Source: Saccostrea echinata (Eukaryota). From it: 64,000 nucleotides of DNA. Positions 57,952 to 60,900 of the stretch are shown here, one piece after another. The stretch lies in the NCBI RefSeq assembly GCF_033153115.1, contig NW_026889779.1, positions 27,900,001 through 27,964,000 on the forward strand. The letters are read 5' to 3'. Positions within the stretch are counted from its first letter, which is position 1. The number at the start of each line of letters is the position of its first letter. Both the position numbers and the translations under genes were made by a program. Under the pieces are notes generated by a model. The model was not told the DNA's origin. It did no database searches and saw nothing but the letters and a program-made list of their open reading frames with translations.

Positions 57952-60900
57952 ATGAAGGAACTTGGGAAGATTATTGATGTTAAAGATGTCAATTTGAATG
58001 AACCGGTGTCAGAGGAAGTGATTAACCTAATTAAGAAGGAAGTACATGAACATGTTTTATTGATATTCAAAAATCAAGGGATTGTCGGCGGTGATCGTCA
58101 TGTGGAAATAAGTAAATGGTTCGGGGACTTGGAATCCACATTTTACAAACACCCAAGGTCGCCTCATCCTGATGTTTTTCGTGTGTCAAATAACGAGGAG
58201 GAGGGGTGCACGAATGTGGGGCGGACGGGATGGCACATTGACGGGAGTTTTATGAGAGAGCCATTCAAATTGTCACTCTATCACATGGTGGCAGTCCCCA
58301 AAAGTGGGGATACAGGTTTGTCATTGTTTCCAGACATTCACCCAAACATTTGTAACGGGAGCACAGGTGCTTGAGGACAGGACCCCCCCCCCCCCGATAT
58401 AGACCCCGGGTCTGTTCGACTTTTTTCCTCATAAATTATATATGTATGACACATCTGTGATATAATCTATATCATCAATTCGGAAAATTGGCTTAAACAA
58501 ACATTTTATAAAAATTACTACCCTACTCTATATATAAATTAAAGAGAGTGGGTAAATTTTGTAAAATGTTTGTTTTAGTTAATTTTTCCAATTGTTGGTA
58601 TATATTATATCACAAATATATCATTGAAAGATAATTTAAGAGAAAAAAGTCGAAAAGGCCCGGGGGTCTATATCGGGGTGGGGGGTGAGGTCCTGTCCTC
58701 AAGCACCTGTGAACAGGAGAGGAGAAAAATGGACCAGACTGGGATTTGAACCCGGGCCCCCTGAATCTCCAGTCAGGTGCTCTACCAACTGAGCTATATC
58801 TGGCTACCGGCAATCGAACCCATCTGATCACCATGTACATTCCATCCTCCTTAAAAGTCTTCGGCCCTCGAAGACACCAACCCAGACTTTCCCTTGGCAG
58901 GTCTTTCACCTGTCACTTCCAGGGCATGGCACAGCACCAAATGTAATGGGAGAGGAGAAAAATGGATAGACCAGACGGGGATTCAAACCCCTGAATCTGA
59001 ATCTCCAGTCAGGTGCTCTACCAACTGCATGAGCTATCTGGCCACCGATGATCGTACCCATCTCTCCGCCACACATTTTTTAAATGCATTTCTGACTCCT
59101 GCTATTAATCATGAAGCTGTTTAGATTTCCAGAGTACTTACTTGTAAAGTATTAAAATAAATACCTTCTGATGTGTGAATATAATACATTTATGGGTTAG
59201 AGGGCAATTAAAATGCATTTTGTCGGACTGGAAAACCAAACAGTTTGCCTAAGGCCATTAGGCTGAAGGCAAACAGTTTGGTTTGAGGAGTTGACAAAAC
59301 ACATTTTGCCTGAGCACTCATGCAGTCATTATAAAGTATAAATGTTTTGTTACCTTTTCCTTTTTATTTTGACATATTTTGTGCTGGCTTTCATGTTTGC
59401 GATAATTGATAAGATATAGCTGTTCCCGATTACCGTGTGTTGAAAAAACATCGTAGTGGTCTACTATCTCATTGACAGGTCCATTATCTCACTCTATGGT
59501 CCTACATCGATTTTTTTGACTGCTCAGTAAAACATTGGAAATATTAGACTTCTTTTAGAGTAGATTTATATAGGAAACAATTTTTAAAGGTATAAAGGTA
59601 TAACAATAAATTTTGTTTTACATGCAATGGACATTTCCTCTGTTGCTTACAGCATTTGTACCACTGACAGACTTGATTGAGAGTCTACAACCAGATGTAA
59701 GAGCCAGGTGGGAGAGGCTGTACATGGTCAGTGATCGTCGCTCAAAGTCCACACACCCCTTAATATATGCACACCCTGTCACAAAGAAACCAGTAAGTTA
59801 CTATTTCATGGCAGTGACATAAGGTTACTGACCACTTTGACTAAATATTGTTTTCATTGGCAAGTAGTATTTTGAAGTTCTGAAAGTTTAAAGGAGTCAA
59901 TCCGCATCACTGGATTATTTCATTATTATTCAAAAAATAAATAGTAAGCTTCTCTTGCTATCTGTTGTTATCTCAATCAAGAAAGTCTTCTAGTTGAAAT
60001 ATGAACTTCATAATTATTTACTTCTTACTTGATATATATTTCATGATACACTGATAATTAGACTGGTCTCTTTGAGGGAACTTGATTTTCATGGTTGACA
60101 AAGTGTAGAGTTGCTATACATTTGAAATTTATATTTCATGGAGGACATGAATTAGTGGGACTATTCATACCACAAAAACAACGAAAATTAACCCCCAATA
60201 AAAATGAGTTATTTCACAGTATCTTAAAAACTCAGAGCTTTTGCAATGAAATTTTATATCACAATTTTTATGGTCTATAAAAGACCACTTTTGATTTTGA
60301 GGTAAAAAAGTCAAAGGTCGAGATCAGAAATTCATACAATGCAAATAACAATTTCCAAGTGATAACTTCAGTTTTCTTGAAACTTTTTGCAAAGAAATTT
60401 ATCACAACTCCTTGTGCCCTAAAAAAGACTACTATTGATTTTGAGGTGAAAAGGTCAAAGGTCAAGGCCAGGAATTCATACATTCTGTCTGTGTGTAACA
60501 CTTTCATTTCTGGACCCTATCTTAAGAAGCTTTTGAGATTTTGCAGTGAAATTTCATATTACAACTCCTTATGGCCTTAAAATGACCCTGTATTGGTTTA
60601 GAGGTCAAAAGATAAAGGTCAAGGCAGAAATTTATATATGGCATAAAATGGTTTCTAGATGAGAAATTTTAATCTCTTTGAGCTTTTTCAGTGAAGTTAT
60701 ACATGTGTATCATATCTCCTATAGACTTTAAAAAGACCCCTATTGATGTTTATGTCATAGGTCAAGGTCAGATATTCATACAATGCAAAAAGTTGTTTCC
60801 GCTGATAACTTTGGTTTTCCTTGAGCTTTTTCTATGAAGTTTTATATAATAGCTTAAGGAAGACCCTGTTTGATTTTTGGATAAAAAGGTCAAGAGGAAA

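What the first reader, a model, noticed from the sequence alone, without database searches (positions are those of the whole stretch)
58351..59073. Complete ~365-bp LTR retroelement whose LTRs are built around a tRNA gene
Seen on the minus strand: two ~131-bp TGT...ACA LTRs. Each contains a tRNA-like body, best preserved at 58733-58805 (GCCAGAT acceptor, A box TAGCTCAGTTGG, CCTGA/TCAGG stem, B box GGTTCAAATCC). A PBS TGGTGCTGTG (tRNA-His-like) lies 2 nt after the 5' LTR, a PPT precedes the 3' LTR, and the TSD is 4-bp CATT. There is no coding capacity, and the structure is masked by a MITE inserted in one LTR. Known: Cassandra TRIMs carry 5S sequence in LTRs and, from memory, Ajax-type elements carry tRNA sequence in molluscs. 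Inference: a Pol III-driven SINE/LTR hybrid mobilised in trans, possibly a new family. The LTRs have diverged, so the copy is old or recombinant.
Basis: partly seen in the sequence, partly recalled or inferred. Interest (0 to 1): 0.72.

Follow-up and report, generated by a model that had tools for sequence, protein, structure and literature searches.

The report
Known tRNA-bearing mini retrotransposon (Helenus)
This is a decayed copy of a 365-base, gene-less jumping element whose two end repeats each hold a tRNA-like piece; the kind was published in 2024 as Helenus, this family nearly matches one already listed from a rock oyster, and it likely borrows its enzymes from a Gypsy retrotransposon found in the same genome.

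Summary
Window 58351-59073 (minus strand) is LTR-PBS-PPT-LTR with a 4-bp TSD. A 350-bp MITE with an 8-bp TSD sits in the 3' LTR. The family is multi-copy: 22 of 29 other loci have an exact 4-bp TSD, so it is not two SINEs. It is Helenus (Kojima 2024, PMC10886601). By eye, intact copies match Helenus-1_SaGl of Saccostrea glomerata at 126/130 (LTR) and 97/103 (interior). The scan has met Helenus before in other genomes. Four leads go beyond that paper's main text. (1) A Gypsy family here shares the tRNA-His PBS, 20 of 21 bases at the PPT/LTR junction and a 4-bp TSD. (2) One hybrid locus joins that Gypsy LTR to the TRIM at the PBS. (3) Some units carry 18-27 bases copied from tRNA-His in place of the 10-base PBS. 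(4) A T4/T5 run follows the tRNA body in each LTR, so Pol III would have to read through the first one. Pol III transcription and the helper link remain untested. Already known; low interest.

The parts
59074..59077 (-). Target-site duplication, 5' copy (AATG on minus strand)
58942..59073 (-). 5' LTR, 132 bp, TGT...ACA
   Evidence: 111 matches, 17 mismatches, 6 gap columns against the LTR of intact copy L017
58968..59043 (-). tRNA-like body in 5' LTR; A box broken by a 4-nt insertion, B box degraded
   Evidence: Rfam RF00005 31.0 bits
58958..58962 (-). T5 run after the tRNA body (possible Pol III terminator), 5' LTR
   Evidence: T5 in 55 of 57 LTR matches in the family
58930..58939 (-). Primer-binding site for tRNA-His, 10 nt (one C-to-T change against most copies)
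   Evidence: Fig. S2C of PMC10886601
58840..58941 (-). Non-coding interior, 102 bp
   Evidence: 93 of 102 identical to copy L006
58840..58852 (-). Polypurine tract, degraded
58712..58839 (-). 3' LTR, part before the MITE (58712-58719 is one copy of the MITE's 8-bp TSD)
58733..58803 (-). tRNA-like body in 3' LTR with intact A and B boxes and an 8-nt anticodon loop
   Evidence: Rfam 42.7 bits; ARAGORN
58725..58729 (-). T5 run after the tRNA body, 3' LTR
58362..58711 (.). 350-bp MITE, long terminal inverted repeats beginning CACAGGTG, 8-bp TSD; multi-copy
58351..58361 (-). 3' LTR, last 11 bp (58354-58361 is the other copy of the MITE TSD)
58347..58350 (-). Target-site duplication, 3' copy (AATG on minus strand)
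57907..58315 (+). Host exon of a TauD/TfdA-family dioxygenase gene (start uncertain); likely GT donor at 58316-58317, so the element lies antisense about 35 bp into the intron
   Evidence: Pfam TauD E 3.9e-12

Best explanation
This is an old copy of a Helenus TRIM, a non-coding LTR retrotransposon with tRNA-derived LTRs, a tRNA-His primer site and 4-bp target duplications, likely transcribed by Pol III and likely copied by the enzymes of a Gypsy element of the same genome; a MITE later inserted into its 3' LTR. Steps: (1, inferred) Pol III starts at the tRNA body of the 5' LTR; most RNA would stop at the T5 run (about 84 nt) and a fraction would read through to the T5 of the 3' LTR (about 317 nt), making the tRNA body the R region. 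(2, strongly inferred from sequence) host tRNA-His primes the minus strand at the 10-nt PBS and the PPT primes the plus strand. (3, inferred) Gag, RT and integrase come from the Gypsy family that shares PBS, PPT and TSD length. (4, shown) insertion leaves a 4-bp TSD; tandem three-LTR arrays and solo LTRs also occur. This copy has a broken A box in its 5' LTR, a mutated PPT and a split 3' end, so it is likely dead.
For: Layout and TSD recur: 22 of 29 other loci have an exact 4-bp TSD and none has 5 or 6 bp (three of the 22 share flanks, so 20 separate sites). Two copies have LTR pairs identical over 130 of 130 bases (L017, L027). Match by eye to Helenus-1_SaGl: LTR 126/130 for L017, interior 97/103 for L006; published sizes 129, 103, 361 bp, TSD 4. 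tRNA-His(GTG) genes are in the genome, and their 3' end plus CCA is complementary to the first 10 PBS bases. Primer footprints: 9 of 30 loci read with the full 18-nt His PBS have BLAST hits to the TRIM LTR or interior; in L057 and L087 one array holds both the 10-nt and the 18-nt form; L059, whose LTR hits are weaker (80-85%), has 27 nt of tRNA complement. Helper: L092 pol has protease-RT-RNase H-integrase in Gypsy order. Of 12 His-PBS loci extended to 10 kb, only L092 and L093 match the TRIM at the PPT (20 of 21 bases in L092). 23 of 28 hits to that PPT variant are this Gypsy family and 4 are TRIMs; 4 of 7 paired Gypsy copies have an exact 4-bp TSD, none 5. One hybrid joins 565 bp of this Gypsy LTR and its spacer to the TRIM PBS, interior and LTR (L121).
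Against: No transcript start, end or polymerase was measured; the paper also has no experimental test of Pol III use. The T5 run could stop Pol III before the PBS. The TRIM and the Gypsy share no sequence found by BLAST beyond the PPT junction, and the PBS is set by the tRNA, so other His-primed families (L094, L096/L097) are not excluded; only 12 of 92 His-PBS sites were extended. The hybrid is a single locus with no TSD and without the 5' half of the Gypsy LTR, so it could come from a deletion between two PBS microhomologies. 3 of 7 Gypsy pairs showed no exact TSD. 7 of 29 TRIM loci showed no TSD by script (rearranged, in a microsatellite, or with a deleted LTR). The comparison with the published consensus was by eye, not by program.
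Confidence: 0.85

Rival explanations
1. It is the same Helenus TRIM, but the RNA that gets copied is made by Pol II read-through from host genes or neighbouring promoters; the tRNA body yields only a short terminated RNA or is vestigial.
For: T5 directly after the tRNA body in 55 of 57 LTR matches. A human study reports 4U as the optimal terminator (10.1101/2025.10.17.683076, passages). The window copy lies in an intron.
Against: A and B boxes are conserved across Helenus families (PMC10886601 section 3.5). The same human study reports common read-through, sometimes for several hundred bases. Cassandra does use its Pol III promoter, as stated in PMC10886601.
Confidence: 0.2
2. The helper is a different tRNA-His-primed element, and the shared PPT with the L092/L093 family reflects a common tract among oyster LTR elements.
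For: Other His-PBS elements with LTRs and long frames exist (L094, L096, L097). 80 of 92 His-PBS sites were not extended. The published Helenus-5_SaGl has the same PPT end but an Ile PBS, so PPT and PBS do not always travel together.
Against: Among those examined, only this family shares the PPT junction, and the one hybrid found involves its LTR.
Confidence: 0.25
3. Two tRNA-derived SINEs lie side by side by chance.
For: Single LTR-only copies exist: 2 of 30 LTR-end loci read are solo units with their own 4-bp TSD.
Against: The full two-LTR layout with fixed interior recurs in nearly all of the 30 best loci with 4-bp TSDs, TGT...ACA ends and no A-rich tail. Solo units with 4-bp TSDs are the expected product of LTR-LTR recombination.
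Confidence: 0.01
4. The tRNA-like RNA from the LTR primes its own reverse transcription.
For: The cloverleaf still folds when the body is taken alone. Earlier scan notes raise this idea for diatom elements.
Against: The body ends in TCTGGTC, which is not complementary to the PBS, whereas host tRNA-His is. The paper found no such complementarity either.
Confidence: 0.02

Closest known systems
Helenus-1_SaGl (Saccostrea glomerata), Kojima 2024, PMC10886601, DataS1 and Table S1
   Same: LTR 129 vs 130 bp, interior 103 vs 102-103 bp, 4-bp TSD, tRNA-His PBS, same PPT; by eye 126/130 (LTR, L017) and 97/103 (interior, L006).
   Different: Three substitutions and one extra T in the LTR (T5 here, T4 in the published consensus). 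The window copy is about 85% like intact copies and carries a MITE.
Helenus-2C_CGi (Crassostrea gigas), same paper
   Same: Same layout, His PBS, closely similar tRNA body and interior by eye.
   Different: More diverged than the SaGl family; longer PBS match; no unbroken T4 after the tRNA body in its consensus.
Cassandra TRIM (plants)
   Same: Non-coding TRIM with a Pol III promoter in each LTR; forms tandem LTR-interior arrays (PMC7215508 passages), as here (L010, L016, L087).
   Different: 5S-derived rather than tRNA-derived; different PBS; Pol III use is reported for Cassandra only.
Ajax TRIM (nemerteans)
   Same: TRIM with a small-RNA promoter in the LTR.
   Different: 5S-derived, 5-bp TSD, tRNA-Leu PBS, 421-434 bp, two ribbon worms.
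Gypsy-39_CGi (named in the paper as sharing the His PBS)
   Same: Same 18-nt His PBS as the Gypsy family found here (against 22).
   Different: Only its PBS was seen; whether L092/L093 are its relatives could not be tested.

Membership tests
Helenus (animal type) | TRIM: under about 1 kb, two LTRs, no coding capacity | tested here: met
   365 bp without the MITE, LTRs 132 and 131 bp, interior 102 bp
Helenus (animal type) | tRNA-derived sequence with A box (TRGCY, YGG) and B box (GGTTC) in each LTR | tested here: met
   Rfam tRNA above gathering score in both LTRs; boxes intact in the 3' LTR and in family copies, degraded in this 5' LTR
Helenus (animal type) | PBS complementary to the 3' end of a host tRNA, just after the 5' LTR | tested here: met
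   10 nt complementary to this genome's tRNA-His plus CCA
Helenus (animal type) | PPT before the 3' LTR | tested here: met
Helenus (animal type) | 4-bp TSD | tested here: met
   window copy and 22 of 29 other loci
Helenus-1_SaGl family | High sequence identity to the published consensus over the full length | tested here: met
   By-eye count only: 126/130 and 97/103 (against 11, 33)
TRIMp3 (functional sense) | Transcribed by RNA polymerase III from the LTR | not testable with these tools
   Only assembled contigs of RNA or guessed-RNA runs were available
Helenus (animal type) | Mobilised in trans by a Gypsy element | tested here: inconclusive
   Shared PBS, PPT junction and TSD length, one hybrid locus; no functional test
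Ajax | 5S rRNA-derived LTR sequence and 5-bp TSD | tested here: not met
   Rfam finds tRNA and no 5S at E up to 1; TSD is 4 bp
tRNA-derived SINE pair | Independent units with simple-repeat tails and variable TSDs | tested here: not met
P-superfamily or hAT MITE (nested insert) | 8-bp TSD and terminal inverted repeats | tested here: met
   16 of 24 other loci exact 8 bp, 6 with one mismatch, 2 unresolved
P-superfamily or hAT MITE (nested insert) | Superfamily assignment through an autonomous transposase with the same ends | not tested
   The CACAG end fits the P-type CANRG rule as I recall it; no call confirmed that rule (searches gave listings only)

The most novel reading that the evidence does not exclude
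Helenus solves the problem of having a Pol III terminator in both LTRs with an RNA switch. The first 20-odd bases of the LTR (U3) pair with the tRNA 3' strand right up to the T run. A Pol III transcript would contain U3 only in its 3' LTR, so the stem would close, and the cloverleaf be masked, only at the far end. Together with the Gypsy family that shares its PBS and PPT and has recombined with it at the PBS, this would give the first specific helper-parasite pair and transcript model for an animal Pol III TRIM.
Probability: 0.2. Interest if true: 0.5.

Novelty: already known. Interest (0 to 1): 0.17.

Why it matters
As a discovery it matters little: the kind and, near enough, the family are in print. 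It matters for annotation, because such LTRs are called as tRNA genes (ARAGORN calls them, as tRNA-Ser in L027). The extras speak to questions the 2024 paper leaves open. They name a likely helper family by PBS, PPT, TSD length and one hybrid, show apparent footprints of tRNA-His priming, and pose a testable question of how Pol III passes a terminator in the 5' LTR but stops at the same one in the 3' LTR.

Tried and rejected
RNA evidence: contigs from four runs (one recorded as RNA, three guessed) cover the LTR and interior, and some cross the LTR-PBS junction. Contigs give no strand, start or level, and DNA or intronic RNA can explain them, so they are not used as support. The run search held under 0.4 of the words at best. 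Interior hairpins as a packaging signal: folding z was -0.54 for L006 and -2.36 for L016. One pair varies as C-G 19, T-A 10, mismatched 3, but both changes are CpG transitions and probably mark a subfamily; inconclusive. U3 stem: strong in this family (31 of 38 LTRs scored, of 45 found, beat all but at most 1 of 100 shuffles) and in a second family (8 of 10 scored, of 12), absent by this test in a third (0 of 10), and 1 of 4 ordinary tRNA controls also gave z -3.4. Copies are not independent, and U3 may simply be a duplicated piece of the tRNA arm; kept as a lead only. A TSD or the rest of the Gypsy LTR at the hybrid locus was sought in 10 kb and not found. The Rfam microRNA hits on the MITE are far below gathering scores and reflect its hairpin. 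Paper searches for the MITE's superfamily gave nothing usable. Repbase itself was not available.

Full report
Observation. On the minus strand, 59073-58351 reads as a 132-bp LTR (TGT...ACA), a 2-nt spacer, the PBS TGGTGCTGTG, a 102-bp interior ending in a degraded PPT, and a second LTR of 131 bp once the insert is skipped; 365 bp in all, flanked by AATG on both sides. Both LTRs match the Rfam tRNA model above its gathering score (42.7 and 31.0 bits against 29). The insert is a 350-bp MITE at 58362-58711 with long inverted ends and an 8-bp TSD with one mismatch. It is a family of its own: 16 of 24 other loci have an exact 8-bp TSD, 6 have one mismatch, 2 are unresolved, and several share flanks. 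The element lies antisense about 35 bp inside a likely intron of a TauD-family gene.

Family. The window lies in a 923-Mb genome. A search with 58720-59073 gave 1469 candidates, of which 40 were scored, yielding 51 matches. Of the 29 other loci fetched, 22 have an exact 4-bp TSD and none has 5 or 6 bp; three of the 22 share flanks. The 7 without are rearranged, sit in a TA microsatellite, or have a deleted LTR. LTR pairs reach 130 of 130 identity in L017 and L027, so some insertions are recent. Exact patterns give lower bounds: 67 LTR-PBS junctions and 255 LTR ends, with 0 hits for reversed controls. The PPT junction pattern gives 382 hits but is shared with sister families. Among 30 LTR-end loci read, 2 are solo LTRs with their own 4-bp TSD. 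The window copy is old: its LTRs differ at 18 of 124 aligned columns plus 15 gap columns, and differ from intact L017 at 17 (5' LTR) and 7 (3' LTR) substitutions, mostly at different places. Part of the 5' count comes from one local duplication-deletion patch.

Identity. A paper search found Kojima 2024, PMC10886601. I read parts 1-4 of 6 of the text (abstract to the end of the discussion), word searches in the whole main text, and parts 1 and 10 plus searched passages of the supplement. Helenus is defined there as a TRIM with tRNA-derived LTRs; animal families make 4-bp TSDs and 51 families come from pteriomorph bivalves. Ajax carries 5S sequence and is nemertean. The supplement lists Helenus-1_SaGl from Saccostrea glomerata: LTR 129, interior 103, 361 bp, TSD 4, tRNA-His PBS. 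Counting by eye, L017's LTR matches it at 126 of 130 and L006's interior at 97 of 103. Two more families here resemble Helenus-2_SaGl and -4_SaGl by eye. The host is therefore probably a rock oyster or close kin (inference). A second search for Helenus found only this paper and two others that mention the name 1-3 times, seen as listings only. Earlier notes of this scan reached Helenus in other genomes; I had reached it before opening them.

Priming. The genome has tRNA-His(GTG) genes. Their 3' end plus CCA is complementary to the first 10 bases of the family PBS. The full 18-nt complement occurs 92 times. Of the 30 loci read, 9 have BLAST hits to the TRIM LTR or interior, with differing joints after the 18-19 bases. 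L057 and L087 hold a 10-nt unit and an 18-nt unit in one array, and L059, whose LTR hits are weaker (80-85%), has 27 bases of tRNA complement. In the best-copy set 2 of 30 PBSs are of the long form. This is what plus-strand copying of the primer would leave (retroviral mechanism, recalled), though transfer from a Gypsy PBS could also give 18 bases. The LTR tRNA body is not complementary to the PBS, so self-priming is rejected.

Helper. I extended 12 of the His-PBS sites to 10 kb. Only L092 and L093 match the TRIM, at the PPT/LTR junction; in L092, 20 of 21 bases agree. They belong to one family with LTRs of about 1.2 kb and a pol in Gypsy domain order. Its LTRs have no A or B box by my patterns. 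The Gypsy form of the PPT junction occurs 28 times: 23 in this family, 4 in TRIMs, 1 other. 4 of 7 paired copies have an exact 4-bp TSD. L121 joins 565 bp of this Gypsy LTR and its spacer to the TRIM PBS, interior and LTR. It is the only such junction by pattern and has no TSD or 5' LTR half. It fits a strand transfer between co-packaged templates, or a later deletion between two PBS sites. The paper links bivalve His-type Helenus to Gypsy-39_CGi by PBS only; its main-text PPT passages show no PPT comparison. I did not see the main figures, or the unread supplement parts beyond the searched passages.

Transcription. A T run follows the tRNA body: T5 in 55 of 57 LTR matches in this family, T4 in 10 of 10 scored in the second family, T5 or T4 in 10 of 10 in the third. 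Pol III starting in the 5' LTR would give about 84 nt, or about 317 nt after one read-through. The paper's two uses of 'terminat' concern Cassandra, and 'readthrough' does not occur in its main text. A human Pol III preprint (10.1101/2025.10.17.683076, passages only) reports both that 4U is the optimal terminator and that read-through is common, so the point is open. In the folded whole LTR, U3 pairs with the tRNA 3' strand up to the T run in 38 of 38 LTRs scored. By duplex energy against shuffled U3 this is strong in two families with different stem sequences, not in the third, and one of four tRNA controls also scored. It is a lead, not a result. RNA contigs add nothing decisive.

Verdict. 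Membership in Helenus is close to certain. Pol III use and the helper are inferred. Novelty: already known. Interest 0.17, with a 0.2 chance that the U3 switch and specific helper hold and would merit about 0.5.

Noticed in passing
L121 / L162 (G000:C30:7688546-7689331): Hybrid of the 3' 565 bp of a Gypsy LTR with its spacer, joined at the His PBS to a TRIM interior and TRIM LTR; the only such junction found by pattern; no TSD found.
   Followed up: partly
L092, L093 and L104-L131: A Gypsy family with LTRs of about 1.2 kb, tRNA-His PBS, a gag with a weak SCAN-like hit and a PR-RT-RH-IN pol; LTR pairs 95-99.8% identical in six of seven paired copies; 4-bp TSDs.
   Followed up: partly
L164-L178: A second Helenus family (355 bp, 123-bp LTR, T4 after the tRNA body, 4-bp TSDs), like the published Helenus-2_SaGl by eye; tandem arrays present.
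   Followed up: partly
L179-L193: A third Helenus family (about 382 bp, 139-bp LTR, Lys-type PBS), like Helenus-4_SaGl by eye; 75 exact hits of a 21-nt motif.
   Followed up: partly
L010, L013, L030, L016, L015, L018, L087: Three-LTR tandem arrays and inverted, rearranged clusters of the TRIM; L010, L013 and L030 share flanks, so one insertion was duplicated or assembled more than once.
   Followed up: partly
L061-L085: The 350-380 bp MITE family with 8-bp TSDs; L062, L065, L076 and L078 share near-identical flanks, as do L082 and L083.
   Followed up: partly
window 19856-20947 (minus): A single long frame of 363 aa with ribose-phosphate pyrophosphokinase domains.
   Followed up: no
window 33810-34730 (minus): A frame of about 305 aa with a KN-type (TALE) homeodomain.
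   Followed up: no
window 9921-10741: A tandem repeat of about 45 bp that reads as open frames, next to what may be a coding exon.
   Followed up: no
LTR positions 9-30 of the family (e.g. L017:1509-1530): A second B-box-like, T-arm-like hairpin lies in U3 upstream of the tRNA body; a similar motif is in Helenus-2C_CGi by eye.
   Followed up: partly
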